Origin: a bacterium
GTDB lineage: Bacteria; Patescibacteriota; Minisyncoccia; Minisyncoccales; CG1-02-41-26
Length of the DNA stretch: 64,000 nt
NCBI GenBank assembly: GCA_043802745.1
Contig: JAZDKU010000015.1
Location: 1,358-65,357 of the forward strand
Reading direction: 5' to 3'
The translations under genes were made by a program, and so were the position numbers. Shown one piece after another: positions 13,927 through 62,891 of this stretch. The notes under the pieces were generated by a model, which searched no databases, was not told the origin of the DNA, and was given only the letters and a program-made list of their open reading frames with translations. Numbering within the stretch: position 1 is the first letter of the stretch; every line of letters starts with the position of its first letter.

Positions 13927-13950
13927 TTTTCGGATTTCGGATTTCGGATT
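13927..13950. repeat. tandem heptamer (ATTTCGG)x3, intergenic
   Basis: tttcggatttcggatttcgg; same unit recurs at 16345-16372 and inside uvrA. Confidence 0.7.
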
Positions 13951-13957
13951 TTTTTAA

Positions 13958-14575: not shown

Positions 14576-14582
14576 TGCTTGA

Positions 14583-14608
14583 TTCCTAATTCCTAATTCT
14601 TAATTCTT
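14583..14608. repeat. tandem heptamer (TAATTCY)x4 just 3' of groEL stop
   Basis: ttcctaattcctaattcttaattcttg. Confidence 0.7.
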
Positions 14609-16292: not shown

Positions 16293-16344
16293 CTAAACCA
16301 GAATTCCTAATAAATGCCTAAATGCCTAATTCCCAATTTTTCGG

Positions 16345-16372
16345 ATTTCGGATTTCGAGCTTCGGGTTTTAA
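16345..16372. repeat. tandem heptamer (ATTTCGG)x3 in groES-groEL spacer
   Basis: tttcggatttcggatttcgagcttcgg. Confidence 0.65.
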
Positions 16373-25152: not shown

Positions 25153-25238
25153 GCCGAGGTGATGGAACTGGCTAGACATGTAGGTCTCAAAAACCTATGG
25201 CCGAAAGGCCGTGAGGGTTCGACTCCCTCTCTCGGCAC
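25153..25238 (+). tRNA. tRNA-Leu (anticodon CAA), type II
   Basis: Acceptor GCCGAGG/TCTCGGC, D-stem ATG/CAT, anticodon stem TAGGT/ACCTA loop CTCAAAA, variable arm GGCCGAAAGGCC, T-arm GAGGG TTCGACT CCCTC. Confidence 0.85.
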
Positions 25239-26237: not shown

Positions 26238-28730
26238 TTATTGAAAATCTACTACGAAATTTATTAGTTTATTTTGCACGAAAACAACCTTTTTAATTGT
26301 TTGGCCTTTCAGCCATTTATTTATCTTTTCATCCTGTTTGGCAATTTCTAAAGCTTGCCCTTGACTTGCTTCTGCTTCAACTTCCACAACTCCTCTGGCT
26401 TTGCCATTGATTTGCACCACTATCTTCACCCTATCTTCAAAAAGCCACTCTTCTTCTGGTTTTGACCATTGTTCTAAAAATATACTATCATTATTTCCTA
26501 ACCGATGCCACAATTCCTCTGCTATATGGGGGGCAAACGGCGAAACAATAATCAAAAATCTTTCTAAATCTTTTTTAGACAGAAAACCTTCCTGCAAATC
26601 TTTTTGAGTCCACCATAATCCGATAAAACCCATCAAACAACTAATTGCCGTATTAAACTTCATTTGCTCAATGTCCTCTGAAACTTTTTTAATTCTCAAT
26701 TCAAGCGATACCTTCAGCTCTCTAAATTTTATTTCTTTGGGAAATTCTTTTGAAAGAGAGTCGTTAACCAACAACCATATTCTTTCTAAAAATTTTCGCG
26801 CACCAATTATAGCTTCTGTATTCCATGCGATTGCTTGGTCAAAGGGCCCCATAAACATTTCGTAAATTCTTAAAGTATCAGCTCCATATTCTTTCACAAT
26901 ATCATCAGGATTTATCACGTTGCCCTTACTCTTGCTCATTTTCACCCCCCCCTCCGCCAAAATTAACCCCACATTACGCAATTTTAAAAACGGCTCATCA
27001 AAACTAATTAAACCCTTTCTAAAAAGAGCTTTAGTAAAAAACCGAGCATATAAAAGATGCAAAACCGCATGCTCTGCTCCCCCCACATATAAATCTACTG
27101 GTAGCCAATATTTAATTTTTTCTAAGCCAGCAAACTCATTTTTATTTTGATAATCAAGATAACGAAAAAAATACCAAGACGAGCAAACAAAAGTGTCCAT
27201 TGTATCAGATTCTCGCTTTGCTTGTCCGCCGCATTGCGGGCATTTAACATTATGAAAATCCTTAGACTTTGTTAGGGGCGACTCGCCTGTTGGCACAAAA
27301 TCAACATCTGTTGGTAATAACACTGGCAAATCTTTTTCTAACACAGCTTGCTCCCCGCATTTGTCGCAATAAATAATAGGAATAGGGGCGCCCCAATATC
27401 TTTGCCTAGAAACCAGCCAATCCCGCATCCTATAATTTACTTTTTTCTCAGCTATTTTTTTACTAGCCAGCCACTGCCCAATACTTTCTATAGCTTCATT
27501 CGAGGCAATCCCATTAAATTGTTCTGAATTTGTTAAAATGCCTTCTTCTTCCCAACACTCTGCCTCTAATCTAACGCAATCCTTCTTACCCATAGCAAAA
27601 TCAACAGCATTAACTAAAGTAGCGCTCAACTCTGGTGGCAGAATAACCTTTGGACAGGGCAACCCATACTTTTTTGCAAACTCAAAGTCACGAGCGTCGT
27701 GAGCTGGCACAGCCATAATAGCGCCAGTGCCATAGCCAGACAAAACATAGTCAGCCACAAAAATCGGAATTTCTTTTCCATTGGCTGGGTTTATGGCCAT
27801 AATACCTTCTAGTTTTACACCTGTCTTATCCCTAACATCTGCCTGCCTATCTCTCTCGCTTTTTTTCTTTGCTACTTCAACATACTCTTTCACCTCCTTT
27901 AGATTTAAGATTTTAGATTTAAGATTTAAGATTATTTCATGTTCTGGAGCCACCACTAAATAAGTGCACCCGAATATAGTATCAATTCTTGTTGTGAACA
28001 CATTTATTTCAAATCTTGAATCATGAATCTTGAATCTTATTTCATGCCCAGTGCTTTTTCCAATCCAATTTTTTTGCATTATTTTAATTGGTTCTGGCCA
28101 ATCAATTTTGTCCAAGCCAGCCAAAAGCTCTTCGTTAAAATCCGTAATTTTAAAAAACCACTGCTCTAAATCTTTTTGGCTAACCTCGCTACTGCACCTT
28201 TCACACTTGCCATCTTGGGCTTGCTCATTAGCTAAAACTGTTTGGCAAGAATCGCACCAATTAACAGAGGCTTTGGCTTTATACGCCCAACCATTTTTAT
28301 AAAGAAAAAGAAAAAACCATTGTGTCCATTTGTAATATTCGGGACTTGAAGTGTCTATTTCTCTTTCCCAATCATAAGAAAATCCTAATGACTTAATTTG
28401 TTCTTTAAAATAAGCTATATTTTTGTGCGTGCTTTCGTTTGGGTGGACTTTAGTTTTAATAGCATAGTTTTCTGCTGGCAAGCCAAAAGCATCCCAACCA
28501 ATTGGATGGAGCACATTAAAACCGCTCATCCGCTTATATCGAGAAATAATATCAGTGGCTGTATATCCCTTTGGGTGGCCCACATGCAAACCAGCCCCGG
28601 AAGGATAGGGAAACATATCCAAACAATAAAACTTAGCTTTGTTGCCAAAATCCTCAGCCTTATTTAACCCTTGCTCTTCCCAAAACTTTTGCCATTTGGA
28701 TTCAATTTTATCTGGCTCGTAATTATTCAT
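26238..28730 (-). CDS. leuS: leucyl-tRNA synthetase
   Basis: HVGHPKGY (HIGH), KMSKSKGN, CP1 editing domain. Confidence 0.95.
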   Translation of the reverse strand: MNNYEPDKIESKWQKFWEEQGLNKAEDFGNKAKFYCLDMFPYPSGAGLHVGHPKGYTATDIISRYKRMSGFNVLHPIGWDAFGLPAENYAIKTKVHPNESTHKNIAYFKEQIKSLGFSYDWEREIDTSSPEYYKWTQWFFLFLYKNGWAYKAKASVNWCDSCQTVLANEQAQDGKCERCSSEVSQKDLEQWFFKITDFNEELLAGLDKIDWPEPIKIMQKNWIGKSTGHEIRFKIHDSRFEINVFTTRIDTIFGCTYLVVAPEHEIILNLKSKILNLKEVKEYVEVAKKKSERDRQADVRDKTGVKLEGIMAINPANGKEIPIFVADYVLSGYGTGAIMAVPAHDARDFEFAKKYGLPCPKVILPPELSATLVNAVDFAMGKKDCVRLEAECWEEEGILTNSEQFNGIASNEAIESIGQWLASKKIAEKKVNYRMRDWLVSRQRYWGAPIPIIYCDKCGEQAVLEKDLPVLLPTDVDFVPTGESPLTKSKDFHNVKCPQCGGQAKRESDTMDTFVCSSWYFFRYLDYQNKNEFAGLEKIKYWLPVDLYVGGAEHAVLHLLYARFFTKALFRKGLISFDEPFLKLRNVGLILAEGGVKMSKSKGNVINPDDIVKEYGADTLRIYEMFMGPFDQAIAWNTEAIIGARKFLERIWLLVNDSLSKEFPKEIKFRELKVSLELRIKKVSEDIEQMKFNTAISCLMGFIGLWWTQKDLQEGFLSKKDLERFLIIVSPFAPHIAEELWHRLGNNDSIFLEQWSKPEEEWLFEDRVKIVVQINGKARGVVEVEAEASQGQALEIAKQDEKINKWLKGQTIKKVVFVQNKLINFVVDFQ
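27901..27935. repeat. in-frame (AGATTTA)x5 heptamer array in leuS ending ...atttcatg
   Basis: Encodes HEIILNLKSKILNLKE. Confidence 0.8.
28012..28039. repeat. in-frame (AATCTTG)x4 heptamer array in leuS ending ...atttcatg
   Basis: Encodes HEIRFKIHDSRFEI; paralogous to the array at 27901. Confidence 0.8.
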
Positions 28731-29568
28731 AGTTCAATTTAAACAAATTTTTAGCGTTTTGGGTAGTGGTTTGAGCAATTTTCTCCAAACTTTCGCCTCT
28801 TATTTCGGCAATTTTTTGAGCAATGTATTTTACAAAAATCGGTTCATCGCGATCTTGCTGGCCGCCTTCGCCTTGCGGGCTAAGGCGTGCAGAAGGCGGG
28901 CAAAGAAACGGGCAATCTGTTTCCAAAAGCATTCTTTCCAGAGGCATTTTTTTAATTGTTTCTGCTAAATCCATTTTGAAAATAATTCCATTAAAGCCTA
29001 AATAAAAGCCGAGCCCCATATACTGTTGTGCCTCCTCCCAGCTCCCTGTAAAACAATGCACTACACCCCTCCCCCCTCCTAATTCATAATTCTTAATTCT
29101 TAATTCTTCTAGCAGGTCTTGATGGGCTTTTCGGCAATGTAGGATTACAGGCAAATTTAATTCTTTTGCCAAATCTAATTGTTTTAAAAAAACTTGTTTT
29201 TGCTTGTCTTTAAAAATTCTGGCCTTTTCTTTTCCTTTTGGCTCGTTCCAATAATCCAAACCAATTTCTCCTATAGCCACCACTCCCTTTTCTTTGGCTA
29301 ACTCTCTGTATTTTTCAATATCTAATTCTTCTAGTCTATCCTCGTCTAATTGACTTAAGTCAATAACGCAATTGATTGGATGCAAGCCAACAGAAGCAAA
29401 AACACCCTCTTTATGTTGTTGGGCTATTTTCACGGCTAATTGCGAGGTTTTATAGTTTGAGGAAGCGTTTATTATCCAAGTATCTTGCTCTAGGCTTTTT
29501 TTTATAACCTCATCCCTGTCCTCGTCAAACGCCTTAAAATTCAAATGGCTGTGGGTATCAATTAGCAT
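28723..29568 (-). CDS. tatD: TatD-family metal-dependent hydrolase/DNase
   Basis: MLIDTHSHLNF..., conserved His/Glu/Asp metal ligands. Confidence 0.85.
   Translation of the reverse strand: MLIDTHSHLNFKAFDEDRDEVIKKSLEQDTWIINASSNYKTSQLAVKIAQQHKEGVFASVGLHPINCVIDLSQLDEDRLEELDIEKYRELAKEKGVVAIGEIGLDYWNEPKGKEKARIFKDKQKQVFLKQLDLAKELNLPVILHCRKAHQDLLEELRIKNYELGGGRGVVHCFTGSWEEAQQYMGLGFYLGFNGIIFKMDLAETIKKMPLERMLLETDCPFLCPPSARLSPQGEGGQQDRDEPIFVKYIAQKIAEIRGESLEKIAQTTTQNAKNLFKLNYE
29078..29108. repeat. 31-nt element cctaattcataattcttaattcttaattctt in-frame in tatD (encodes ELRIKNYELG); identical copy in ileS at 43119-43149
   Basis: Exact identity seen in sequence. Confidence 0.85.
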
Positions 29569-29569
29569 A

Positions 29570-31015
29570 TTAGGCTAGTCTTGGAAACAAAGGTTCGCTT
29601 TTGTTGGTTTTTATTTGTTCTAAAATTTTCTCTGAAGTTTGGGGCATAAAGGGCGCAAGCATCTCAGCGATGCTACAAATAACAAATAACAAATAACAAA
29701 TAACTTTTTCATTTTTAGTTTTTAGTTTTTCATTTCCTTCTTCCCATGGCTTTTCTGTGGCCATTATTTTATCGCAAACCCCGATCAACTCCCAAACAGC
29801 TCCCAAGGCCTCGTCAATTTTTAAATCTTTAAGCGCTATATTGTACTTATCTTTTGCCTGTTTCACCTCGCTTCCGCCCCACTCCTCGGCTTGGGGCCGA
29901 GGGGTGGGACGTAGTGCCTTGTATTTACTTGCAAGAGTTACAACTCTAGCAACCAAATTACCAAGGCCGCTAGCCAAGTCTGAATTATATTTTTCATCCA
30001 AGCGAACAAGCGAAACATCTCCGTCATTGCCAAAGGGAAATTGGGTTAAAAGTAAATACCTAGTAGCATCAACACCATATTTGTCTATTAAATCATTGGG
30101 GTCAACCACATTGCCGATTGTTTTGGACATTTTTTGGCCATCAATAGTGAAATAACCATGGCAAAAAACCTGTTTTGGCAACTGGTCAACAGCGTCTTCG
30201 CCATAATAAGCTAGCAACAAGGCTGGCCACATAATACAATGAAATTTTAGAATATCACGGCCGACTAATTGCAAGTCCATTGGCCAAAATTCAGTTTTGC
30301 CTAAATTCTGCAGAGCAGTCCAATAATTAAGCAAAGCGTCTACCCACACATAAATTGTCTGGCTTTCCTCCCATGGCAACTTAATGCCCCAAGAAACGCT
30401 TTTACGAGAAATAGAAATATCGTCAAGCCCCTGCTTTATCACGCCCAAAACCTCGCTTTTAGCATTTTCTGGCATTATTAAAATTTTATCTTGTTCTATT
30501 AGTTCTTGAATCTTTGGCAATAATTGCCTTAACTTAAAAAACCAATTCTCTTCAGCCACGTCTTGGGGCTCACATTTATGGTCTGGGCATTTGCCCTCAA
30601 CCAGATCTTTATCAGTCACAAACTTTTCACAACCCACACAATACTTGCCCGCATACTCGCCCTCATAAACAAAACCATTATTTTTTAATACTGTTAAAAA
30701 TTCCTGCACTTTTTCCTCGTGCGGTTTGTCCGTGGTGCGAATAAAGTATGAGTAGTCAATGTTTAAATTTTCCCAAGCTTTTTTAAATAAATCTGAAACT
30801 TCATCGCAAAATTCTTTTGGGGTTTTGTTGGCTTTTTGGCTAGCTTCAAAAATTTTAGCCCCATGCTCATCAGTGCCTGTTAGGAAAAAGACCTCTTTAC
30901 CGCCTATCTTATGATAGCGAGTCAAAACATCAACTGCCAAAGTAGTATAGGCATGGCCCAGATGTGGGCGTGAGTTCACATAATATATTGGGGTGGTTAA
31001 GTAAATTTTATTCAT
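29570..31015 (-). CDS. metG: methionyl-tRNA synthetase
   Basis: PIYYVNSRPHLGHAYTT (HIGH region), KMSKT, zinc-knuckle CVGCEKF..CPDHKC. Confidence 0.95.
   Translation of the reverse strand: MNKIYLTTPIYYVNSRPHLGHAYTTLAVDVLTRYHKIGGKEVFFLTGTDEHGAKIFEASQKANKTPKEFCDEVSDLFKKAWENLNIDYSYFIRTTDKPHEEKVQEFLTVLKNNGFVYEGEYAGKYCVGCEKFVTDKDLVEGKCPDHKCEPQDVAEENWFFKLRQLLPKIQELIEQDKILIMPENAKSEVLGVIKQGLDDISISRKSVSWGIKLPWEESQTIYVWVDALLNYWTALQNLGKTEFWPMDLQLVGRDILKFHCIMWPALLLAYYGEDAVDQLPKQVFCHGYFTIDGQKMSKTIGNVVDPNDLIDKYGVDATRYLLLTQFPFGNDGDVSLVRLDEKYNSDLASGLGNLVARVVTLASKYKALRPTPRPQAEEWGGSEVKQAKDKYNIALKDLKIDEALGAVWELIGVCDKIMATEKPWEEGNEKLKTKNEKVICYLLFVICSIAEMLAPFMPQTSEKILEQIKTNKSEPLFPRLA
29674..29732. repeat. adjacent in-frame heptamer arrays (CAAATAA)x4 and (TTTTTAG/TTTTTCA)x4 in metG C-terminal region
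   Basis: Encodes KLKTKNEKVICYLLFVICSI. Confidence 0.75.
29873..29911. repeat. GC-rich near-palindromic element in-frame in metG (encodes RPTPRPQAEEWGG), same coding orientation as topA copy
   Basis: rc reads cgtcccacccctcggccccaagccgaggagtggggcgg. Confidence 0.85.
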
Positions 31016-31657: not shown

Positions 31658-32356
31658 TTATGCGCTAATTTTATTAACTGCTACGACGAATTCTCCTTTT
31701 AGGGGGGATTTTTTTATTGCTTCAATAACTTCGTTGAGAGAGCCGCGGTAGATGGTTTCAAACTTTTTAGTTAGTTCTCTACCCACCACTATTTGCGTTT
31801 TATCTTCTATTCCTGATTCCTGAACCATAAATCCTAATTCATTGAGCGTCTTTATGATGCGATAAGGAGATTCAAAAAATATCACTGAGTGCTTTGAGTT
31901 TATAATTTCTTCAAAAAATTGCTTTCTTTTTTTCTTAATTGGCGGAAAGCCTAGAAACAAAAACTTGTCCATAGGAAACCCGCAAACACTAGCTATAGCT
32001 GTTAATGCCGACGGTCCGGGAATTGGCTCTATTCTAACTTTATCACTCAATGACTTAATGACTTCCCCAACAAGCTGACTGCCTGGGTCAGATATTCCCG
32101 GCGTGCCAGCATCTGAAATTAAAGCTAGATTTTTCCCGTCTTGTAACAAACCTAAAATATAATCAACCTTATCTAACTTAGAATGCTGATGATAAGAAAT
32201 CATTGGCTTTTTAATGCCAAAACGAGTGAGCATTTTTTGGCTCACCCGCGTGTCTTCACATAAAATATAATCAACAGATTTTAAGGTATCCAAGACCCTT
32301 TGGGAAATATCGCTTAAATTCCCAATAGGCGTTCCCACCACATACAAAACAGACAT
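31658..32356 (-). CDS. rsmI: 16S rRNA (cytidine1402-2'-O)-methyltransferase RsmI
   Basis: MSVLYVVGTPIGNLSDIS..., tetrapyrrole-methylase fold. Confidence 0.85.
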   Translation of the reverse strand: MSVLYVVGTPIGNLSDISQRVLDTLKSVDYILCEDTRVSQKMLTRFGIKKPMISYHQHSKLDKVDYILGLLQDGKNLALISDAGTPGISDPGSQLVGEVIKSLSDKVRIEPIPGPSALTAIASVCGFPMDKFLFLGFPPIKKKRKQFFEEIINSKHSVIFFESPYRIIKTLNELGFMVQESGIEDKTQIVVGRELTKKFETIYRGSLNEVIEAIKKSPLKGEFVVAVNKISA

Positions 32357-32430
32357 AAAAAAGTGATTGAGTCATTGAGTGACTAAGTGATTAAGCTTCT
32401 TAATCACTTGATGACTTGATGACTTAGTGA
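32351..32430. promoter_or_regulatory. 5' leader/promoter module of rsmI, 44 nt identical to htpX leader
   Basis: See 11449-11530. Confidence 0.5.
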
Positions 32431-33474: not shown

Positions 33475-34766
33475 ACTCTCATTAACTTTTGCAATTGGTT
33501 TTCGTTTTTATGCGGACCAATAATTGATAGATTTAAGCTTTGTTTCTTGAAGATTTCTTTGGCTAGAGCCCTAACTTCGCTTGCTTTTACTTTATCAATT
33601 TTGGCACACTCATCTTTTAATGTCAAAATCTTGCCCGTTAAAAGTTCTTGGCCAGCATAAAAAGAAGCTAGAGCATCCGAACTCTCCAAGCTCAAAGTTA
33701 AATTTCCTTTTAAATAATCTTTGGCTTTTTTAAGCTCGCTTTCTGCCACAGTTACTTGAGCTAAATTTTTATATTCTTTTAAAATCATGGCAATAGCTTT
33801 AGCTAAAGCAGTGTGGGGCACTCCAGCTTGAGTAACCAAATAACCGCTATCAGTAAAACTTTCCGCATCTGTTTTAATATAATAAGCCAATCCATTTTTT
33901 TCCCGCACCTTAATGAAAAGTCGAGAGCTCATATTGCCCCCCAAGATAGTGGCCAATACTTCTTGCACATAAATTTTAGGACTAAACAAATCAAAAGCCC
34001 TAACCCCTAAGCAAAAATGAGTTTGGTCTGTTTCTTTAAACTTTAAATGCATTTGTGGCTCTTTTTGCCCCTCAACAACCCTTATTTTCCCTTCTGGTCT
34101 TTGCTTGTTGATAACTCTAAACTTTCTTTTGATGTCTTCTGTCATTTTAACTTGGTTAAAATTACCAGAAACGCAAACAATTGTATTGCTGGCAGAATAA
34201 TGGTTTTTAATATAATCAATAAAATCTTTTCTTTGAACTTTTTTTAAATTATCTTTAGTACCTATAATTTCCCAGCCAGCTGGCTGGTCACCATACAAGA
34301 GCGTTTCAAATAAATCTCTTATATGCCTCACTGGCGTATCTAAATACATATTTAACTCTTCAATAATAACGCCTCGCTCTTTCTCTATTTCTTTGCTATC
34401 AATTTTAGAGTTTAAAAAAATATCTGAAACCCAATCCAAGGCCAAATCAGTATGTTTGGAATCAACTTTAGCAAAATAGCCAGTGTATTCTTTGCTGGTA
34501 AAAGCATTGTAAAAACCGCCCACCCTATCTAAGGTTTCAGAAATTGCCAAAGTGTTTGGCCTTTTTTTTGTGCCTTTAAAAAACATATGCTCCACAAAAT
34601 GAGAAATGCCATTATTCTTCTTATTTTCATACTTACTGCCAGCCCCTACCACAGCCAAAACCGTAACAGCTTGAGTGTTTTTATTGGGCACCAACATTAT
34701 ACGCAAACCATTATCTAAAATTATTTTTTTATACATAGAATTAATTTTCAATTTACGAATTTTCAA
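33471..34766 (-). CDS. M16-family (insulinase/pitrilysin-like) zinc peptidase
   Basis: Inverted zinc motif HFVEHMFFKGT (HxxEH). Confidence 0.85.
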   Translation of the reverse strand: MKIRKLKINSMYKKIILDNGLRIMLVPNKNTQAVTVLAVVGAGSKYENKKNNGISHFVEHMFFKGTKKRPNTLAISETLDRVGGFYNAFTSKEYTGYFAKVDSKHTDLALDWVSDIFLNSKIDSKEIEKERGVIIEELNMYLDTPVRHIRDLFETLLYGDQPAGWEIIGTKDNLKKVQRKDFIDYIKNHYSASNTIVCVSGNFNQVKMTEDIKRKFRVINKQRPEGKIRVVEGQKEPQMHLKFKETDQTHFCLGVRAFDLFSPKIYVQEVLATILGGNMSSRLFIKVREKNGLAYYIKTDAESFTDSGYLVTQAGVPHTALAKAIAMILKEYKNLAQVTVAESELKKAKDYLKGNLTLSLESSDALASFYAGQELLTGKILTLKDECAKIDKVKASEVRALAKEIFKKQSLNLSIIGPHKNENQLQKLMRV

Positions 34767-34776
34767 TTTTCAAATA
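34744..34776. repeat. AATTTTC heptamer element at prmC 3' end / M16 peptidase 5' end; near-identical to element inside recO (41930-41976)
   Basis: aattttcaatttacgaattttcaattttcaaa vs recO aattttcaatttacaattttcaattttcaaa. Confidence 0.7.
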
Positions 34777-41608: not shown

Positions 41609-42331
41609 TTACCCTTTTTCCACTAAAAAATCAAAGTATGCAGTAAAAGCCTGGTTTAGATTTTGCAAATCTTTTTCCAAAATATTTAATCTCTCTACTT
41701 TCTCAATTGGCTCTTTGATAAAAAATCTTATAAGCTTCACCGCCCCCACTGTGATTTCCTGAGCAGGAAAATCACAGCACTTCCCGCATATCACTCCTCC
41801 GTGCTCTGGTGATAAAAAAAATATCTCTGGCAAAAGTTTTTTAGCGCAAACAGGGCAAGTGTAGAGCTCAGGAGAATAACCTAAAATCGCCAATAGGTTC
41901 CAGGCAAAGTGGTAATAAATAATTTTCAATTTACAATTTTCAATTTTCAAACAATTTTCAATTTTTTGAAATACTCCAAACAGTAAATTCCAAACGTTTT
42001 CATCGCTTTGTTCTTTTATTGTCAAGCGACACATGATTTCAGAGATTTTAATTATCAAAGAAAGCGCTCCTGGATTTTTTCTTGTTTCTGAAAACTTGTC
42101 AGTTATAATGGCATCAGTTAGAGTTTTTTGTTTTTTGCCTTGGATAAATTCGAGTTCAATAAAATAAAAAACATCAATGCCTGCTCTTAATTTTGATGTT
42201 ATTTTACGAATTGCCCTACCAACCACTTCTATCTTGCCAAAGTCCTGTGTGTATAAAATAAAAATCTGGTCTGCCTCCCCAGAATCTCTTTTAGATAAAA
42301 CAATTCCTTTTGTTCGATAATGCTGATGCAT
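41609..42331 (-). CDS. recO: DNA repair protein RecO
   Basis: N-terminal OB fold (TKGIVLSKRDSGEADQIFILYT), C-terminal CxxC...CxxC zinc finger. Confidence 0.8.
   Translation of the reverse strand: MHQHYRTKGIVLSKRDSGEADQIFILYTQDFGKIEVVGRAIRKITSKLRAGIDVFYFIELEFIQGKKQKTLTDAIITDKFSETRKNPGALSLIIKISEIMCRLTIKEQSDENVWNLLFGVFQKIENCLKIENCKLKIIYYHFAWNLLAILGYSPELYTCPVCAKKLLPEIFFLSPEHGGVICGKCCDFPAQEITVGAVKLIRFFIKEPIEKVERLNILEKDLQNLNQAFTAYFDFLVEKG
41930..41976. repeat. in-frame (AATTTTC)n heptamer array in recO (encodes KIENCLKIENCKLKII)
   Basis: Seen in sequence. Confidence 0.75.
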
Positions 42332-42752: not shown

Positions 42753-45673
42753 ATTACTTTCCCATCTATTTTAAATTCTGACTGGGCTAAGAATTCTCCT
42801 TCTTTATTTTTGTTTTCTTTTATTTCTTTTGAGCGAGTGGTTGATAAAATTTCGGCTTTGTTTTTATCAAAAATTTTCTCTAAACTCTTTTCAGCAGAGT
42901 AACTAATAACAATATTTGTGTCGTTTGGCGTTAGCCCGGCTTGTTTGCGCAAGCTTTGGATATTTCTAATAATTTCCCGCACTGTGCCCTCTTCTTTTAA
43001 CTCCTCGGTCATAGTAGTGTCCAGCTCAACCCCACCAGTAATATCATCGCTAAACAAAACCTCTTTAACATTGACCTCATCTTTAATTAATTCCAAAAAT
43101 TCTTTTTTCCCCTTTATTCCTAATTCATAATTCTTAATTCTTAATTCTTTTAAGGCTTGTCTCACCCCAATACCAAGCTCGGCTCTTTTGGCCAAAACCA
43201 AAGAAACAACATCCCTAACCTCCTGCATATCTTTTTCTAATTTTTCATCAATAAGTTTCTTATCCACTTTAGGCCAATCGCACAGATGAACCGACCGAGG
43301 GCAGCCCTCGGGGTAGCACCCCGAGGGCTGCCCTCGGGACACTAACTGCTGATAAATATCTTCAGCTAAAAATGGCATAAAAGGAGTGGTAAGTTTGGCA
43401 ATAGTTATTAAAACATCATAAAAAGTTTGCTCTGCTTCTTGAAATCTTTTGCGCGATCTTCGCACATACCAAAGCGACAAATCATTAATCCAAAAATTTT
43501 CAATAGCCAACGTGGCTTTCATTACGTCAAATTTATCTAAGCTATCTGTTGCCTCTTTTATTAAATTATTTAATTTTGAAATTATCCATCTATCTAAAAC
43601 ATTCTTGATTCTTGATTCTTGATTCTTGATTCTTGATTCTGACGCGTATGTTAAAAAGAAGGTTACGCAATTTGTTAAAGTTAAGATTTTTCTTTCAGTT
43701 TCTTTGGCCACATTATAGCCAAACCTCATATTGTTGGCTGGATTTTGTACCACATACATCCATCTCATCACGTCAGCTCCGATTTTTTCTACTGCCTCGT
43801 CAAACCAAATAGCATTGCCTTTTGACTTGTGCATTTCCTCGCCCTTTTCATCCACTACTGAAGCAAACCCTAATAAATTCTTAAACGGCATTTCATTTTC
43901 CAAAACTTGGCTCATCACCAACAAAACATAAAACCAATTTTTAAATTGACCGGGAAAACTCTCGCACACTAAATCAGCTGGGAACCATTTGTCCCACTCT
44001 CCTTTATTATTATGAAAATAGCCGGGAATGGTTGAAAATGGCACAATACCCGCATCCAGCCATGGAGTACCAACATCTAAAATTCTTGGCACAACTTCAC
44101 TGCACTTTGAGCATTTTATCTTTACTGAATCAATCCAAGGCCGATGAAGTGAATTTCCCTCGAATTCTTTCCAACCCTCCACTGCCCTTTCTTTTAATTC
44201 TCCCATTGAGCCAATAACATCAAAATTTTTACACTTAGAGCATTCATAAATCGGCAGGGCCAAACCCCAATATCTTTTTTTAGATATTAGCCAATCGCGC
44301 ATATTCAGGAGCCAATCAAGCTCTCTTTCTAAGCAAAAACCAGGAACCCAGTTTATTTTTCTGGCAATAGTCATTAGTGGTGCTTTTAGATAATCCATAG
44401 CAATATACCACTCATCAACCAAGCGAAAAATTAACTCACTTTTACATCTCCAGCAAGTTGGATACCTGTGTTTATAATCTTCTATTTTATAAACTAAGTT
44501 ATTGGTTTTTAATCTTTCAAAAATAAGCTCACGAACAAACTCTTCGCCCACAAAATGCCCGGTTAAAGCATCAAAGCCTTCGGCGTATTTACTTTCATCG
44601 TTAGTTGGATTAACAACTGGCAAGCCTTGTTCTTTCCCTAAAGCAAAATCTTCCTGGCCACACCCTGGGGCAGAGTGCACAACTCCAGTGCCCTCTTCTT
44701 GCGTTACATCTTTCCATAAAATAACTTTGTGCTCATAACTTTTTAAAGCCTCCCTTACAGCGGGCAATTCATCAAAAAGCCCAGTATATCTCTTGCCTTC
44801 AAGCGCCCTACCTTCAAATACTTCCAAAATTTGACCATTTTCAATTAAACTAGCTTTGTCTTTTAATAAGATATAAATTTCGCCAGTTTTTGGGTCAGCT
44901 ACTTTAGCATAAATCAAATCCGGATGAACTGATAAAAAAACATTGGCCACTAATGTCCATGGAGTGGTTGTCCAGGCTAAAAAATATGTTTCATTTTCGC
45001 CCATAACTGGCAGTTTAAAATAAATAGCCTTATGGGTTATTTCTTTATATTCCTCAGTTAAAATTTCGTGCTGGGAAATAGCAGTGCCACATCTCGGACA
45101 CCAAGGCACCACATCATGGCCTTTGTATAAAAGCCCTTTTTCTTTACACCTCTTCAGGAAATGCCAAATAGCGTAATTATTTTCTGGGGACATTGTGTAA
45201 TACGAATGGCTTTGCTCCATCCACTCGCCTTTTTCATCAAAATCTGTTTGCCAGTTGCCCCAATCCCGCAACATGCCCAATCTTATGGACTGCTCGGTTT
45301 GGATTTTTGAATATTTATGCACCCGCTCCTTACATTTGTTGACAAAATTAGCAATGCCGTATCTTTCAATGTCCTTTTTGTTGCGAAAGCCAAGTTCTTT
45401 TTCCACTTCTACTTCCACCCAAAGCCCTTGGCAATCAAAACCATTTTGGAAGCGCTCGCTATAGCCTTGCATGGCCCTATACCGCTGAAATAAGTCTTTG
45501 TAAGTCCTGCCCCAAGCATGATGAACGCCCATGGGGTTATTAGCAGTTATCGGACCATCTAAAAAACTCCAAGGCTTTCCTTTTTTATTTTTCTCTTTCA
45601 GTTTTTCTAAAAGTTTTATATCCTCCCAAAACTTTAAAGTTTCCTTTTCTTTTTTTACAAAATCATTTTCCAT
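42728..45673 (-). CDS. ileS: isoleucyl-tRNA synthetase
   Basis: HIGH-region (PITANNPMGVHHAWGRTYKD), KMSKSKGN, CP1 editing domain, 981 aa. Confidence 0.95.
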   Translation of the reverse strand: MENDFVKKEKETLKFWEDIKLLEKLKEKNKKGKPWSFLDGPITANNPMGVHHAWGRTYKDLFQRYRAMQGYSERFQNGFDCQGLWVEVEVEKELGFRNKKDIERYGIANFVNKCKERVHKYSKIQTEQSIRLGMLRDWGNWQTDFDEKGEWMEQSHSYYTMSPENNYAIWHFLKRCKEKGLLYKGHDVVPWCPRCGTAISQHEILTEEYKEITHKAIYFKLPVMGENETYFLAWTTTPWTLVANVFLSVHPDLIYAKVADPKTGEIYILLKDKASLIENGQILEVFEGRALEGKRYTGLFDELPAVREALKSYEHKVILWKDVTQEEGTGVVHSAPGCGQEDFALGKEQGLPVVNPTNDESKYAEGFDALTGHFVGEEFVRELIFERLKTNNLVYKIEDYKHRYPTCWRCKSELIFRLVDEWYIAMDYLKAPLMTIARKINWVPGFCLERELDWLLNMRDWLISKKRYWGLALPIYECSKCKNFDVIGSMGELKERAVEGWKEFEGNSLHRPWIDSVKIKCSKCSEVVPRILDVGTPWLDAGIVPFSTIPGYFHNNKGEWDKWFPADLVCESFPGQFKNWFYVLLVMSQVLENEMPFKNLLGFASVVDEKGEEMHKSKGNAIWFDEAVEKIGADVMRWMYVVQNPANNMRFGYNVAKETERKILTLTNCVTFFLTYASESRIKNQESRIKNVLDRWIISKLNNLIKEATDSLDKFDVMKATLAIENFWINDLSLWYVRRSRKRFQEAEQTFYDVLITIAKLTTPFMPFLAEDIYQQLVSRGQPSGCYPEGCPRSVHLCDWPKVDKKLIDEKLEKDMQEVRDVVSLVLAKRAELGIGVRQALKELRIKNYELGIKGKKEFLELIKDEVNVKEVLFSDDITGGVELDTTMTEELKEEGTVREIIRNIQSLRKQAGLTPNDTNIVISYSAEKSLEKIFDKNKAEILSTTRSKEIKENKNKEGEFLAQSEFKIDGKVIWLALCLY
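43119..43149. repeat. 31-nt element identical to tatD copy, in-frame in ileS (ELRIKNYELG)
   Basis: cctaattcataattcttaattcttaattctt. Confidence 0.85.
43295..43337. repeat. 43-nt GC-rich perfect palindrome (20-bp arms, 3-nt loop; each arm itself a hairpin) in-frame in ileS
   Basis: ccgagggcagccctcggggt-agc-accccgagggctgccctcgg; encodes SRGQPSGCYPEGCPRSV. Confidence 0.85.
43603..43642. repeat. in-frame (TTGATTC)x6 heptamer array in ileS (encodes ESRIKNQESRIKN)
   Basis: Seen in sequence. Confidence 0.8.
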
Positions 45674-47639: not shown

Positions 47640-49292
47640 TTACATTTTAGTAGGGGATTCGATGCCTAGGATAGTTAGGCTGTTTTTTATTACGTAGCCA
47701 ACAGCGGACGTTAAGGCCAAGCGGAATTGTTTTTGTTCTTTGGTGTCTGCTTTTAAAATTGAAATTTCATTATAAAACAAATTAAAGCTTTGCGATAAGT
47801 CAAAAGCATAATTGCAAATAAGATTAGGTGAAAAAGTAACAACAGCCTGCTCAATTATTTCTTGAAAATGTAAAAGCTTTTTCAAGAGTATTTTCTCAAT
47901 TTCCTGCAAGCCACTAAAATCAATTTTGGTAATTTTGACAGTAGTCGGGCTACCGTTATATTTTTCCAAAACGCTTTGGGTACGAGCAAAAGCATATTGC
48001 AAATATGGCCCGGAATTGCCCTTTAAGTTTAAAATTTTATCCCAGTCAAAAACAATATCTCTTGAATGGTGCTGGCTTAAATCATTGTATTTAACCGCCC
48101 CAATGCCAACTTGTTTGGCTAGCTCTTTGTTTTTTTCACCAGAAAGATCTTCGGCTTTGTCGATAGCCTCTTGCAAAACATCTTCTAGGTGCACGGTATC
48201 GCCTCGCCGAGTTGAAAACTTGCCAGTCTTACTGCGCATCAAACCGTGGACAATATGCTCAAATTTCACATCTTGAATCCAACCAAGTAAATCAACTGTT
48301 TTAAATAACTGCTTAAAATAAAGCGACTGGTCAACTCCAACCTCGTAGGCAATAATATTGGGCTTCCATTTTTCTAATCTGTATTTAATAGTGGCCAAGT
48401 CTCTTAAAAAATAAGTAGTGGCACCATCGGATTTCATCAGCACCAAACCTGGAAAAACATTATTTTCAAATTCCACTACCCAAGCGCCCTCGCTCTGCTT
48501 TGTTAAATTTTTCTTTTTCATTTCTTCAAAAATACTTTGCATTTTATCTAAATAAAAACTTTCGCCCAAAGCATTATCAATTTTAACACCAAGCAAATTA
48601 TAAATTCTATCAAACTCTTTTAAAGAAATTTCCTTGCAAGCCTGCCAAATTTCTTTAGCTTTTTTATCACCGTCTTCTAATTTTTTAAACCAAGCCCGAG
48701 CCTCGTCATTCAGAGCTGGGTTTATTTCTGCCTCTTTATGAAACTCTACATAAAGCTGTTCTAATTTTTCTATATTTAACTCCCCAATTCTTAATTCTTG
48801 ATTCTTAATTCCTAATTCTATTTTATAAATCAGTTTCCCGAATTGTGTGCCCCAATCTCCCAAATGGTTATCGCCAATAGTTTTATAGCCCAAAAATTTA
48901 TATAAATTATAAATCGCTTGGCCAATAATCGTGGAGCGCAAGTGGCCAATGCCAAATGGCTTGGCAATATTTGGACCAGAATAATCAATAACAATAGTTT
49001 TGCCATGGCCGACTTGCGAGGAGCCGTATTTCTCTTTTTGTTTTAAAATCTGCTTTAAATTTTCCAAAAAATACTCTGGCTTTAAGAAAAAATTTATAAA
49101 CCCATTGACAACTTCTACTTTTTCGAATAAAGGGCTTGCTTTTAATTTATCAGCAATTTCTTGGCTGTTTAACTTTTCTTTAATTGCCACATTAGTAGAA
49201 AAATCTCCAAAACTAAAATTATCCGGCATATCCACCACCGCTTTTTTATTGATTGTCTTTTCAATTAAATTTTCTATCTCTTGTTTTAACAT
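47640..49292 (-). CDS. argS: arginyl-tRNA synthetase
   Basis: PNIAKPFGIGHLRS (HIGH-like), C-terminal DALR anticodon-binding domain. Confidence 0.9.
   Translation of the reverse strand: MLKQEIENLIEKTINKKAVVDMPDNFSFGDFSTNVAIKEKLNSQEIADKLKASPLFEKVEVVNGFINFFLKPEYFLENLKQILKQKEKYGSSQVGHGKTIVIDYSGPNIAKPFGIGHLRSTIIGQAIYNLYKFLGYKTIGDNHLGDWGTQFGKLIYKIELGIKNQELRIGELNIEKLEQLYVEFHKEAEINPALNDEARAWFKKLEDGDKKAKEIWQACKEISLKEFDRIYNLLGVKIDNALGESFYLDKMQSIFEEMKKKNLTKQSEGAWVVEFENNVFPGLVLMKSDGATTYFLRDLATIKYRLEKWKPNIIAYEVGVDQSLYFKQLFKTVDLLGWIQDVKFEHIVHGLMRSKTGKFSTRRGDTVHLEDVLQEAIDKAEDLSGEKNKELAKQVGIGAVKYNDLSQHHSRDIVFDWDKILNLKGNSGPYLQYAFARTQSVLEKYNGSPTTVKITKIDFSGLQEIEKILLKKLLHFQEIIEQAVVTFSPNLICNYAFDLSQSFNLFYNEISILKADTKEQKQFRLALTSAVGYVIKNSLTILGIESPTKM
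48786..48820. repeat. in-frame (TAATTCT)x5 heptamer array in argS
   Basis: caattcttaattcttgattcttaattcctaattct encodes KNQELRIGELN. Confidence 0.8.
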
Positions 49293-51342: not shown

Positions 51343-51690
51343 ATGGTAAGAATAAAAAGAGGAACAATCGCCCATAAGCGCAGACGACATTTGTTGGAAA
51401 ATACAAAGGGTTTTAAATGGGGTAGAAAATCAAAATTCAGCCAGGCCAAACAAGCCATGCAAAAGGCCTGGACTTATGCCTATCGAGATAGAAAGAAAAA
51501 CAAATCCAACCGCCGGGCTTTGTGGCAAATAAACATTAACGCAGCTGTTAGGCATTTTGGCCTTTCATACAGCAAGTTTATTGCTGGCCTAAAAAAGAAT
51601 GGCATTGAGCTTGATAGAAAGGTTTTAGCCCAACTAGCCAAAGACCAACCTGAAATTTTTGAAAAAATCGTTGAGAAAGCTAAATCCTAG
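51343..51690 (+). CDS. rplT: 50S ribosomal protein L20
   Basis: [32 protein letters not shown]... Confidence 0.9.
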
Positions 51691-51724
51691 ATTTACGATT
51701 CAAGATTCATGATTCAAGAATAGA
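51691..51724. repeat. intergenic (GATTCAW)x4 heptamer array
   Basis: gatttacgattcaagattcatgattcaagaatag. Confidence 0.65.
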
Positions 51725-62570: not shown

Positions 62571-62594
62571 GAATTAAAAGTTTATAGTTTATAG

Positions 62595-62891
62595 TTAGTA
62601 GTTAATAGTAGACGAAGCAGTAGAAGTTGAAATTGTCTCGTCTAAAGTGGTTGTGCCAACTAGGCTTTCTATCATTTGGGTTATTTCTTGATTTGTTTGG
62701 TCAGTTATTTGCGTTGCCTCTTTGGCTTTATCAATAGCGCCCAAAGTATTTAGCCCCAAACCAACGTCAATGCCCTGACTAGCAAACTTATCCATTCTTG
62801 CTCTGGCATTATGACCAATAATAAAAGCCAACGGCACAGCAATTGCCATCAAAACCACCCCTGTTAAAATTATTTTCCAAATTTTTTCCAT
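62595..62891 (-). CDS. hypothetical small membrane-anchored protein
   Basis: 98 aa, N-terminal TM ILTGVVLMAIAVPLAFIIG. Confidence 0.4.
   Translation of the reverse strand: MEKIWKIILTGVVLMAIAVPLAFIIGHNARARMDKFASQGIDVGLGLNTLGAIDKAKEATQITDQTNQEITQMIESLVGTTTLDETISTSTASSTINY

What the first reader, a model, noticed from the sequence alone, without database searches (positions are those of the whole stretch)
29078..29108. Exact 31-nt element shared by tatD and ileS, encoding the same decapeptide ELRIKNYELG
cctaattcataattcttaattcttaattctt is identical at 29078-29108 (tatD) and 43119-43149 (ileS), in frame in both, giving both unrelated enzymes the peptide ELRIKNYELG. argS carries a close relative (48786-48820) and groEL has one immediately after its stop codon (14583-14608). 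Identity between loci is direct evidence of recent copy-paste spread rather than convergent slippage.
Basis: seen in the sequence. Interest (0 to 1): 0.58.

Follow-up and report, generated by a model that had tools for sequence, protein, structure and literature searches.

The report
In-frame 7-base tandem repeats, CPR genome
The identical 31 bases in tatD and ileS are two old copies of a short 7-base tandem repeat, one of many scattered through this tiny-genome (Patescibacteria) bacterium and even written into essential genes, and not a freshly pasted mobile element.

Summary
The identity is in fact 32 nt (29077-29108 = 43118-43149), in frame in TatD and IleS, and encodes ELRIKNYELG in both. 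Close relatives lie in ArgS and just after the groEL stop codon.

The element is a heptanucleotide tandem array on the coding strand: (AAGAATT)3-ATGAATT-AGG. It is one of about 18 period-7 arrays in the window. Ten are exact, against 0.07 expected from shuffles. A perfect array would put TAA in frame at every third unit. The variant unit (TAT here, CAA in ArgS) removes that stop.

Sister Patescibacteria genomes (77-86% nt identity) carry the arrays at the same codons, 1-4 nt different. Solved homologues show no real insertion. Exact identity in this genome comes from two derived changes, both towards the AAGAATT consensus.

Copying between arrays is nevertheless real in this clade. One relative has a 54-nt IleS/MetRS pair. 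Another has a 24-nt net insertion in LeuS identical to a nearby array. In this window a perfect GTTATTT array overwrites a conserved MetRS helix without changing its length.

The closest known class is heptamer direct repeats (cyanobacterial STRR, TAACTGA, GGGAATC). I rate it a new variant of a known kind, of moderate interest.

The parts
29077..29108 (-). TatD array: (AAGAATT)3-ATGAATT-AGGA on the coding strand, encoding ELRIKNYELG (aa 154-163). It covers the last turn of helix 149-158 and the loop before strand 168-170.
43112..43149 (-). IleS C-terminal-site array: (AAGAATT)3-ATGAATT-AGGAATA-AAG. The core 43118-43149 is identical to the TatD array. Encodes ELRIKNYELGIK.
43601..43640 (-). IleS mid-site array: GAATCAA x5.7, perfect. 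This unit has no stop codon in any frame. Encodes ESRIKNQESRIKN. Absent in the sister L001; L126 has AAATCAA x7 here.
48786..48820 (-). ArgS array: GAATTAG-GAATTAA-GAATCAA-GAATTAA-GAATTGG (ELGIKNQELRIG). The in-frame TAA is avoided by CAA.
14578..14608 (-). Non-coding array AAGAATT-AAGAATT-AGGAATT-AGGAATC-AAG, 4 nt downstream of the groEL stop codon and upstream of a terminator-like hairpin. It matches the IleS array at 26 of 27 nt.
28012..28038 (-). LeuS site-1 array, AAGATTC type (RFKIHDSRF). 23 nt are identical to the array downstream of rplT. Each relative carries a different array at this site, always the same length.
27898..27933 (-). LeuS site-2 array, AATCTTA type (ILNLKSKILNLK). The sister has AAGAATY units (KNQELGIKNYE) at the same codons.
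29675..29704 (-). MetRS: perfect GTTATTT x4.3 array overwriting a conserved helix (VICYLLFVICSI in place of VIKDLLVVLGEI). Same length; specific to this genome.
29705..29735 (-). MetRS array AAAMTRA (NEKLKTKNEK), shared with the sister and many orthologues.
41921..41965 (-). RecO internal array, GAAAATT type (KIENCLKIENCKLKI). 33 nt are 97% identical to the array upstream of the M16 peptidase gene.
34743..34773 (-). GAAAATT array at the methyltransferase/M16-peptidase junction, ending 6 nt upstream of the conserved M16 ATG. L398 and L001 carry shorter and longer arrays here. It is identical in L401.
51689..51719 (+). AAGATTC-type array overlapping the rplT stop codon and running downstream of it.
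13928..13951 (-). Intergenic TCCGAAA x3.4 array. Shares 22 nt with the array at 16336-16357.
16339..16357 (-). Intergenic TCCGAAA x2.7 array between groES and groEL.
62574..62609 (-). CTATWAA-type array ending 3 nt upstream of the gyrA start codon.

Best explanation
The 31-mer is the core of two in-frame heptanucleotide tandem arrays, (AAGAATT)3-ATGAATT-AGG on the coding strand. They belong to a genome-wide population of period-7 simple-sequence arrays in a Patescibacteria (CPR) genome.

The arrays are a DNA-level phenomenon. Each 7-nt unit is read in all three frames, which gives a peptide with a 7-residue period. The same units also occur in non-coding DNA. Selection only edits them: an in-frame TAA at every third AAGAATT junction is removed by a variant unit (TAT in TatD and IleS, CAA in ArgS), and arrays are tolerated in surface loops, helix ends and gene termini.

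Inferred mechanism. Arrays are born and maintained by repeat-templated copying, meaning slippage or conversion between neighbouring units and occasionally copying from another array. This usually overwrites existing sequence without changing its length, and sometimes adds a few units. Arrays are then inherited vertically.

For this pair. Both arrays predate the split from the sister genomes. Their perfect identity here is the end state of two similar old arrays, read in the same frame, each homogenised towards the AAGAATT consensus while the one stop-avoiding unit is kept. It is not a recent insertion.

Shown: array nature, period-7 excess, shared frame, stop editing, orthologous presence, no real insertion, and copying between arrays in relatives. 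Inferred: the homogenising mechanism, and whether it acted within each array or between the two.
For: - Period-7 excess: 10 exact arrays of at least 2.5 units against 0.07 expected (maximum 1) in 100 dinucleotide shuffles; periods 9-12 give none. TRF lists about 18 period-7 arrays.
- Location: 11 arrays are inside ORFs and 7 are intergenic or at gene ends, although ORFs cover about 93% of the window.
- Stop editing: units without stops (GAATCAA, GTTATTT) are perfect, while AAGAATT arrays are always interrupted at the frame-critical unit.
- No real insertion: the TatD, IleS and ArgS arrays align with segments of nearly the same length in solved structures (TatD +2, IleS C-site 0, ArgS +3 to +5 residues). 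The LeuS arrays do too.
- Structure: in the AF2 TatD model (pLDDT 88) the array sits at a helix end plus a low-confidence loop.
- Ancestral presence: TatD in L004 (1 nt different) and L002 (3/32); IleS in L001 (4/32) and L125 (3/32), at identical codons.
- Polarity: ATG at TatD unit 3 is shared by L004 and L002, and AATC at IleS unit 3 is shared by L001 and L125. Both changes in the window are therefore derived and go towards AAGAATT.
- Other arrays at the same sites: more distant orthologues carry different heptamer arrays there, for example AACTAYA x4 in TatD of L399 and L400, and AAATYCG in IleS of L126.
- Length-neutral overwriting seen directly: the MetRS GTTATTT array replaces a helix conserved in 21 orthologues, with 10 changes in 28 nt.
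- Copying between arrays: L401 IleS/MetRS 54 nt at 96% (E=1e-19); L401 LeuS 28-nt pair; sister LeuS 25-nt pair with a net 24-nt insertion; window pairs of 23, 22 and 33 nt.
- Recurrence elsewhere: the 24-mer AAGAATTAAGAATTATGAATTAGG is in frame in AlaRS, the ArgRS N-domain, glycosyltransferases, RluA, L3 and others in 42 metagenome contigs. AAGAATT x3 occurs in more than 120 stretches from many phyla.
- Literature: heptamer SSRs are reported as the most abundant long-SSR class in bacteria, with a polymerase-slippage hypothesis (PMC4692102, PMC4679880).
Against: - Simple unit-by-unit slippage cannot build arrays inside essential genes, because +/-7 nt shifts the frame. The length-neutral overwriting therefore needs a conversion-like step that I infer but cannot demonstrate.
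- Two changes that both increase identity, with no other changes in 64 nt, fit direct conversion between the two arrays equally well. A local copy event in this lineage is not excluded.
- Some arrays are conserved more strongly than neutral DNA should be. The M16-upstream array plus start region is identical in L401, and the TatD and IleS arrays show about 9% divergence against 18-22% for the genes. This hints at function.
- AT-rich AAGAATT arrays occur in genomes of up to 69% GC, often as inverted pairs. A purely local slippage origin does not explain that well.
- Only about 64 kb of the source genome and a handful of relatives were available.
Confidence: 0.68

Rival explanations
1. Ectopic short-tract gene conversion or template switching directly between the TatD and IleS arrays (or from a third AAGAATT array) in the window's own lineage. 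This would be a real local copy event, but one acting on pre-existing arrays and not an insertion.
For: Both derived changes make the two arrays more alike, and no other change accumulated in 2 x 32 nt while the genes diverged 18-22%. Inter-locus copies with shared irregularities exist in relatives and in the window. 32 nt of identity is near the minimum length for homologous exchange (general knowledge).
Against: A single conversion tract in either direction predicts a different result: AAGAATC in both, or ATGAATT at unit 3 in both. At least one extra point change is needed. Both changes are also towards each array's own majority unit, so within-array homogenisation explains them equally well. 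The sister genome shows no such homogenisation (6/32 differences).
Confidence: 0.2
2. One reading: a small mobile 31-nt element recently inserted by copy-paste into tatD, ileS, argS and downstream of groEL.
For: Exact 32-nt identity that never arises by chance in shuffles. Several related copies in the window. The same 24-mer in many unrelated genomes, including GC-rich ones. One real net insertion of an array copy in the sister's LeuS.
Against: Orthologous arrays at the same codons in genomes only 77-86% identical. No real insertion relative to solved homologues. I saw no flanking repeats or target-site duplication in the flanks. 31 nt is not a multiple of 3, so it could not be inserted in frame as a unit. 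Identity is reached by two separate point-like changes.
Confidence: 0.04
3. The arrays are selected functional motifs: binding sites on RNA or DNA for a protein that recognises heptamers (cold-shock or S1-like, as proposed for TAACTGA repeats), or a useful amphipathic peptide module. Identity would then reflect purifying selection on an optimal sequence.
For: Arrays sit 3-6 nt upstream of the start codons of gyrA and the M16 peptidase gene. The M16 array plus start region is identical in L401 despite about 20% genomic divergence. Array positions are conserved across genomes. In Chloroflexia and others the same heptamer forms inverted pairs in the intergenic gaps of a gene row. MacGregor 2015 (PMC4679880) proposes a translational role for heptamer repeats.
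Against: Unit sequence and even orientation differ between orthologues at the same coding site: LeuS site 1 has three different units in three genomes, and IleS and TatD sites also differ. The coding arrays sit in structurally unrelated contexts. There is no Rfam family and no significant structure for the LeuS array pair (z = -0.96). A function for 5'-UTR arrays would not explain the arrays inside TatD and IleS.
Confidence: 0.08

Closest known systems
Heptanucleotide direct repeats of Beggiatoaceae, Cyanobacteria and Bacteroidetes (TAACTGA repeats; MacGregor 2015, PMC4679880)
   Same: Tandem 7-nt units of 2-6 or more copies dispersed at many loci. Many lie a few nt upstream of start codons or overlap stop codons. 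Some lie inside ORFs, read as 7-residue periodic peptides (LSVISYQ). The forward orientation has stops in all frames. The same unit is found in distant phyla with no known transfer mechanism.
   Different: Here there are several AT-rich unit families (AAGAATT, AAGATTC, GAAAATT, TCCGAAA and others) in a CPR genome. Most arrays are internal to essential housekeeping enzymes and not at protein ends or in hypothetical proteins. In-frame stops are edited out. Coding arrays are conserved in position and neutral in length across relatives.
STRR (short tandemly repeated repetitive) heptamers of heterocystous cyanobacteria, and GGGAATC / GGGGAYT heptamer SSRs of Xanthomonas and Nostoc (Rehm et al. 2015, PMC4692102)
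   Same: Period 7. Over-represented relative to other unit lengths. [quoted passage not shown] Inverted pairs occur. The units share a GAAT(C/T) core with those seen here.
   Different: Those repeats are G-rich, mostly intergenic, and discussed as G-quadruplex formers. The arrays here are AT-rich, mostly coding, and have no G4 potential.
Phase-variable contingency loci with heptanucleotide coding repeats (for example neuO of E. coli K1, HMW1A of Haemophilus; PMC13001214, PMC8262952 from search results)
   Same: 7-nt units inside or next to coding sequence. Only copy numbers that keep the frame give a full-length protein.
   Different: Those loci are in surface or virulence genes, and copy number switches between strains. 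Here the arrays are in tRNA synthetases, TatD and RecO, with the same unit number in genomes 15-25% diverged. No evidence of on/off switching was found.
REP / MITE-like miniature mobile repeats
   Same: Short identical sequences at many loci, including occasional insertions inside genes. Relatives of this genome carry such an insert at the IleS mid-site (CHSE...LRMT), and the window has a GC-rich 35-mer in TopA and MetRS.
   Different: The heptamer arrays have no palindromic ends and no target duplication. They usually add no length and are present at orthologous sites.
Borg tandem repeats (Schoelmerich et al. 2023, PMC9879509)
   Same: Nucleotide-level perfect tandem repeats that create new peptide segments inside ORFs and arise independently at many loci. 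This comparison rests on the abstract seen.
   Different: Here the unit is 7 nt, is read in three frames, and mostly replaces sequence without adding any.

Membership tests
Heptanucleotide tandem (STRR/TAACTGA-type) simple-sequence repeats | Unit length of exactly 7 nt, head-to-tail, at least 3 copies | tested here: met
   TRF gives period 7 with 4.1 copies (29080-29108) and 5.4 copies (43112-43149). Units read off directly.
Heptanucleotide tandem (STRR/TAACTGA-type) simple-sequence repeats | Many dispersed arrays per genome; period 7 over-represented against other periods and against chance | tested here: met
   10 exact arrays against 0.07 expected; periods 5, 6 and 8-12 give 1, 3, 1, 0, 0, 0, 0. 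About 18 TRF arrays. Relatives L001, L002, L126 and L401 also carry many.
Heptanucleotide tandem (STRR/TAACTGA-type) simple-sequence repeats | Present in non-coding DNA as well, often next to start or stop codons | tested here: met
   Arrays 4 nt after the groEL stop, overlapping the rplT stop, and 3 and 6 nt upstream of the gyrA and M16 starts.
Heptanucleotide tandem (STRR/TAACTGA-type) simple-sequence repeats | Same intergenic position in related genomes, with variation in length and sequence | tested here: met
   The M16-upstream array has about 4 units in the window, with a shorter array in L398 and a longer one in L001. The rplT-downstream array differs in the sister.
Heptanucleotide tandem (STRR/TAACTGA-type) simple-sequence repeats | Predominantly intergenic location (as described for STRR, TAACTGA and GGGAATC) | tested here: not met
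   11 of 18 arrays are internal to ORFs, including essential genes. Per base, non-coding DNA is still about 6-fold enriched.
Miniature mobile element (MITE/REP-like insertion) | Presence/absence polymorphism: an insertion relative to orthologues, with an empty site | tested here: not met
   Arrays are present at the same codons in L001, L002, L004 and L125. No real insertion relative to PDB homologues.
Miniature mobile element (MITE/REP-like insertion) | Terminal inverted repeats and/or target-site duplication | tested here: not met
   The flanks of the two copies are unrelated and contain no duplication: CTGCTAG|...|AGGGGGG against GCCTTAA|...|AATAAAG.
Phase-variable contingency locus | Copy number differs between close relatives, switching the reading frame | tested here: inconclusive
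   Unit number is the same in the window, L001/L002, L004 and L125 for the TatD, IleS and ArgS arrays. No strain-level or read-level data were available; L002 and L003 are identical.
Phase-variable contingency locus | Located in surface, virulence or otherwise dispensable genes | tested here: not met
   The hosts are TatD, IleS, ArgS, LeuS, MetRS and RecO.
Known structured RNA family | Match to an Rfam covariance model | tested here: not met
   Only a tmRNA and two tRNAs reach gathering score in the window. Nothing lies at any array.

The most novel reading that the evidence does not exclude
CPR/Patescibacteria genomes harbour an active, repeat-templated 'overwriting' process. This would be short-tract conversion or template switching seeded by weak 7-nt periodicity. 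It rewrites stretches of essential genes into heptamer arrays without changing their length, copies array variants between loci, and leaves 7-residue periodic peptides in the loops and helices of tRNA synthetases and other core enzymes. Arrays placed just upstream of start codons may additionally have been recruited as translation-initiation signals.
Probability: 0.3. Interest if true: 0.7.

Novelty: new variant of a known kind. Interest (0 to 1): 0.48.

Why it matters
Tandem repeats whose unit is not a multiple of three are expected to be excluded from essential genes, because each slippage step shifts the reading frame. Here 7-nt arrays sit inside four tRNA synthetases, TatD and RecO. They are conserved in position for long evolutionary times. 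In one case (MetRS) an array has visibly overwritten a conserved helix with no length change.

If the process is a conversion-like overwriting, it would be an unrecognised mutational force shaping protein sequence in reduced CPR genomes. It would also be a source of spurious low-complexity "motifs" shared by unrelated proteins.

There is a practical point as well. Identical short nucleotide strings in unrelated genes of such genomes should not be read as mobile elements or recent transfer without checking orthologues.

Tried and rejected
1. Exact-protein look-ups of the window's own TatD, GroEL and IleS found nothing on record.

2. I tested whether AAGAATT is a specially favoured heptamer. In viral contigs AAGAATT x3 gives 58 stretches, against 33, 49, 44 and 45 for four same-composition control heptamers. 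There is no strong specificity, so I dropped the idea of an AAGAATT-specific enzyme. This control covers viral DNA only.

3. I tested a hairpin between the two oppositely oriented LeuS arrays (27890-28050). The DNA fold is -12.6 kcal/mol with z = -0.96, which is not significant.

4. The Rfam scan of the whole window found no family at any array.

5. I looked for strain-level copy-number polymorphism. L002 and L003 proved identical over 11.6 kb, so this was uninformative.

6. I asked whether the window's RecO array was replaced by a copy of the M16-upstream array. L126 and L401 show that the GAAAATT type is ancestral in RecO, so it is not a recent replacement.

7. Literature searches for heptamer repeats in CPR/Patescibacteria found nothing specific.

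8. I considered and rejected three other readings. An assembly artefact is unlikely because the arrays are in frame, conserved at orthologous sites and seen in independent assemblies. A diversity-generating retroelement does not fit because the targets are housekeeping genes and the pattern is periodic, not adenine-specific. A programmed-frameshift slippery heptamer does not fit because there is no X XXY YYZ pattern and no second frame.
Full report
**1. The observation**

The 31-mer occurs exactly twice, at 29078-29108 and 43119-43149. There are no further matches at up to 3 mismatches and none in 100 dinucleotide shuffles. The identity is really 32 nt: 29077-29108 = 43118-43149.

Both copies lie in minus-strand genes. 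ORF 28723-29568 is a TatD-family hydrolase (PDB TatD hits at E=3e-44; PF01026). ORF 42728-45673 is IleS. Both read the segment in the same frame as ELRIKNYELG.

The ArgS relative at 48786-48820 (ELGIKNQELRIGEL) is real. So is the array at 14578-14608, which ends 4 nt after the groEL stop codon. IleS holds a second, perfect array at 43601-43640 (GAATCAA x5.7).

**2. What the element is**

On the coding strand the sequence is (AAGAATT)3-ATGAATT-AGG, a tandem heptanucleotide array (TRF period 7). Because 7 and 3 share no factor, each unit is read in all three frames, and the peptide repeats every 7 residues (ELRIKN+Y).

A perfect AAGAATT array puts TAA in frame at every third unit junction. The single variant unit, ATGAATT, turns that TAA into TAT. 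ArgS uses CAA at the equivalent place. Units with no stop in any frame (GAATCAA in IleS, GTTATTT in MetRS) occur as perfect arrays.

The window holds about 18 period-7 arrays. Ten are exact at 2.5 units or more, against 0.07 expected (maximum 1) in 100 dinucleotide shuffles. Periods 9-12 give none. Eleven arrays are inside ORFs and seven are intergenic or at gene ends, although ORFs cover about 93% of the window.

The unit families are:
- AAGAATT/C, 5 arrays
- AAGATTC, 3 arrays including its reverse-complement form
- GAAAATT, 2 arrays
- TCCGAAA, 2 arrays
- several single arrays of other units

**3. Source and relatives**

The window's IleS, TatD and MetRS each match at 100% a protein from a 67,490-nt contig annotated "MAG... 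[bacterium]". The next relatives are Patescibacteria (Pacebacteria and Gribaldobacteria are among the named ones).

I fetched syntenic loci from five relatives:
- sister GCA_030648255.1 (L001, L002)
- GCA_964494705.1 (L125)
- GCA_028718785.1 (L126)
- GCA_038056385.1 (L398)
- GCA_964948515.1 (L401)

I also fetched single TatD contigs L004, L399 and L400.

**4. Is it a recent insertion?**

No, for four reasons.

(a) Solved homologues show no real insertion.
- TatD LEELRIKNYELGGGRGVVH aligns with Thermotoga YEILRTES--LPEKRGVIH.
- IleS LKELRIKNYELGIKGKKEF aligns without any gap to LQSLSLVVTEEDVEWK-AY of 8c8w.
- The ArgS array is 3-5 residues longer than in the E. coli and Neisseria enzymes.
- In an AlphaFold model of TatD (pLDDT 88) the array encodes the last turn of helix 149-158 and the low-confidence loop before strand 168-170. 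This is the alpha-to-beta loop face of the barrel, away from the catalytic end (the barrel geometry is general knowledge).

(b) Orthologues carry the arrays at the same codons.
- TatD, window: AAGAATT AAGAATT AAGAATT ATGAATT AGGA
- TatD, L004: AAGAATT AAGAATT ATGAATT ATGAATT AGGA
- TatD, L002: AGGAATT AAGAGTT ATGAATT ATGAATT AGGA
- IleS, window: identical to the TatD window array
- IleS, L001: AAGAATT AAGGATT AGGAATC ATGAATT AAGA
- IleS, L125: ATGAATT AAGAATT AAGAATC ATGAATC AGGA

The genes themselves are 77-86% identical in nucleotides.

(c) By parsimony the ancestors of the two arrays differed at about two positions. In the window lineage TatD changed ATG to AAG and IleS changed AATC to AATT. 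Both changes go towards the AAGAATT consensus and towards each other. In the sister genome the two arrays differ at 6 of 32 positions.

(d) The flanks show no duplication or inverted ends. A 31-nt unit also could not be inserted in frame.

**5. Is identity proof of a local copy?**

Not by itself. The 24-mer AAGAATTAAGAATTATGAATTAGG occurs in 42 metagenome contigs with 32-67% GC. It is often in frame as (E)LRIKNYELG in unrelated proteins: AlaRS, the ArgRS N-domain, two glycosyltransferase groups, RluA, ribosomal protein L3, a TPR membrane protein, and a large protein whose C-terminus I read as resembling a T9SS sorting domain (not scanned).

AAGAATT x3 occurs in more than 120 stretches of GTDB genomes. 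These span Cyanobacteria, Bacteroidota, Ignavibacteria, Treponema, Chloroflexia, Acidobacteriota, Patescibacteria and others. ATGAATT is the commonest variant unit even in those non-coding arrays.

In viral contigs AAGAATT x3 (58 stretches) is not much commoner than four same-composition control heptamers (33-49). The unit as such is not special there.

**6. Copying between arrays does occur in this clade**

- In L401 the IleS C-site and a MetRS site share 54 nt at 96% identity, including an irregular interior AAAACCAYAATT (E=1e-19; peptides KLKIKNEKIKTIIKNEKL and KLKIKNEKLKTTIKNEKL). Two LeuS sites there share a perfect 28-nt TTTCCAA array in different frames.
- In the sister, LeuS has an 8-9-residue net insertion (GIKNQELGIKREG) relative to the window and to T. 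thermophilus LeuRS. Its DNA is identical over 25 nt to the array 1.25 kb upstream in the same gene.
- L126 IleS has an extra insertion sharing 22 nt with its own mid-site array.
- In the window, further array pairs share 23 nt (LeuS site 1 and rplT-downstream, including the ATGATTC variant), 22 nt (the two TCCGAAA arrays), 33 nt at 97% (RecO and M16-upstream, a pair also present in L401) and 27 nt with one mismatch (IleS and groEL-downstream).

**7. Overwriting without length change**

MetRS of the window carries a perfect GTTATTT x4.3 array at 29675-29704, encoding VICYLLFVICSI. All 21 aligned orthologues instead have a conserved helix of the form VI.DLL.VL.EIA. The sister DNA is GTTATTAAAGATTTATTAGTAGTTTTGG. 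That makes 10 differences in 28 nt, every one towards the periodic state, at the same length.

LeuS site 1 is AAGATTC in the window, AGGAATC in the sister and TTTCCAA in L401. It is always 15 residues, as in T. thermophilus. ArgS in L001 has AAATTAA where the window and L125 have GAATTAA, with a different stop-avoiding base.

TatD in L399 and L400 has AACTAYA x4 at the same site, and L401's TatD has no array there. Tolerant sites are thus repeatedly rewritten by arrays of different units. This looks like concerted, templated change, not accumulated point mutation.

Intergenic arrays, which are free of frame constraint, do vary in unit number: the M16-upstream array has about 4 units in the window, with a shorter array in L398 and a longer one in L001.

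**8. Most likely mechanism**

Shown:
- The arrays are DNA-level period-7 repeats.
- They are filtered for open frames and tolerable peptides.
- They are inherited vertically at the two loci in question.
- They are occasionally copied between loci.

Inferred:
- Neighbouring units, and sometimes distant arrays, act as templates in misaligned replication or repair (slipped heteroduplex correction, template switching or short-tract conversion). This homogenises units and extends arrays over weakly periodic flanks.
- Inside essential genes, only outcomes that keep the length or change it by 21 nt survive.
- The TatD and IleS arrays share unit, length and frame, so they converge on the same stable state: AAGAATT units plus one TAT unit.

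I cannot separate within-array homogenisation from direct conversion between the two arrays. I give the latter about 0.2. The polymerase-footprint slippage hypothesis for heptamer excess is from Mrazek et al. 2007, as summarised in PMC4692102 and PMC4679880.

**9. Comparison with known systems**

The closest known class is bacterial heptamer direct repeats:
- cyanobacterial STRR
- TAACTGA repeats of Beggiatoaceae, Cyanobacteria and Bacteroidetes (mostly intergenic, often just upstream of start codons, a few inside ORFs near protein ends; PMC4679880)
- GGGAATC and GGGGAYT repeats of Xanthomonas and Nostoc (PMC4692102)

The window's arrays meet the defining features: a 7-nt unit, tandem arrangement, dispersal, over-representation, non-coding members next to start and stop codons, and positional conservation with variation.

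They differ in four ways:
- they occur in a CPR genome
- they are mostly internal to essential enzymes
- they show systematic stop editing
- they replace sequence without changing its length

They fail the tests for a MITE/REP-type mobile element and for a contingency locus. I found no paper describing this in CPR, but the library is incomplete.

**10. Verdict**

- Novelty: a new variant of a known kind.
- Interest: moderate (0.48). The 31-mer itself is explained. The length-neutral overwriting of essential genes and the inter-locus copies are the parts worth following.

Noticed in passing
window 29675-29704 (MetRS, minus strand): A perfect GTTATTT x4.3 array replaces a helix conserved in 21 orthologues (VI.DLL.VL.EIA becomes VICYLLFVICSI). 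There are 10 nt changes in 28 nt and no length change. It is specific to this genome.
   Followed up: yes
window 21824-21858 (TopA, +) and 29874-29908 (MetRS, -): An exact 35-nt GC-rich palindromic element (CCCACCCCTCGGCCCCAAGCCGAGGAGTGGGGCGG) lies in the sense orientation of both genes and encodes RPTPRPQAEEWGG in both. In MetRS it occupies a site where orthologues carry heptamer arrays. This is a second class of sequence shared between genes, possibly a real mini-insertion.
   Followed up: partly
window ~28825-28914 (TatD) and 43295-43337 (IleS): GC-rich hairpin-like coding inserts. TatD PPSARLSPQGEGGQQDR is present only patchily in orthologues and has low pLDDT at residues 230-237. IleS SRGQPSGCYPEGCPRS contains a 20-nt perfect inverted repeat and is about 6 residues longer than in T. 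thermophilus.
   Followed up: partly
window 11449-11522 and 32351-32424: A 74-nt element, 92% identical between the two copies with a 44-nt exact core. It is built from 8-nt tandem units in inverted arrangement and ends 5 nt upstream of the start codons of two unrelated genes (ORFs 10549-11454 and 31658-32356).
   Followed up: partly
window 62574-62609 and 34743-34773; L401 6740-6790: Heptamer arrays end 3 and 6 nt upstream of the gyrA and M16-peptidase start codons, where a ribosome-binding site would be expected. The M16 array plus start region is identical over about 50 nt in L401, despite about 20% divergence elsewhere. This may indicate a translational role, as proposed for TAACTGA repeats.
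   Followed up: partly
L401 239-292 and 11159-11212; 13790-13817 and 14893-14920: A relative's IleS and MetRS share a 54-nt irregular array segment at 96% identity. Its LeuS has the same perfect 28-nt TTTCCAA array at two sites in different reading frames.
   Followed up: yes
L002 ~12900-12960 (sister LeuS) and ~11673: An 8-9-residue net insertion (GIKNQELGIKREG) relative to the window and to T. thermophilus LeuRS. Its DNA is identical over 25 nt to another array 1.25 kb upstream in the same gene. This is a duplicative array insertion.
   Followed up: yes
L027 3034-3116, 3934-3998, 4793-4865, 5617-5713 (Chloroflexia MAG, 58% GC); also L042, L046, L150, L158, L167: The four inspected intergenic gaps of a gene row each hold an inverted pair, (AATTCTT)n, then a loop of about 20 nt, then (AAGAATT)n. 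This is an AT-rich inverted pair with arms of up to about 35 nt, made of the same heptamer as the window's element. Similar pairs occur in other GC-rich genomes. Function unknown.
   Followed up: partly
L125 IleS mid-site; proteins P0012, P0014, P0024: At the site where the window's IleS has GAATCAA x5.7, some orthologues carry a 25-40-residue insert (…CHSE..EESQRSFG..LRMT…). I read this as the translation of a widespread miniature repeat element. The site is a hot spot for several kinds of insert.
   Followed up: no
window 50158-50523, 10383-10468, 25153-25237: A tmRNA gene (Rfam RF00023, 139.6 bits) lies next to smpB, and there are two tRNA genes. These are ordinary features, recorded for completeness.
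   Followed up: no
window ~27400-27650 (LeuS aa ~360-412): The window's LeuS is 53 residues longer than the sister's in the region after the editing domain (…CPKVILPPELSATLVNAVDFAMGKKDCVRLEAECWEEEGILTNSEQFNGIASNEAIESIGQWL…). I did not determine which state is derived.
   Followed up: no
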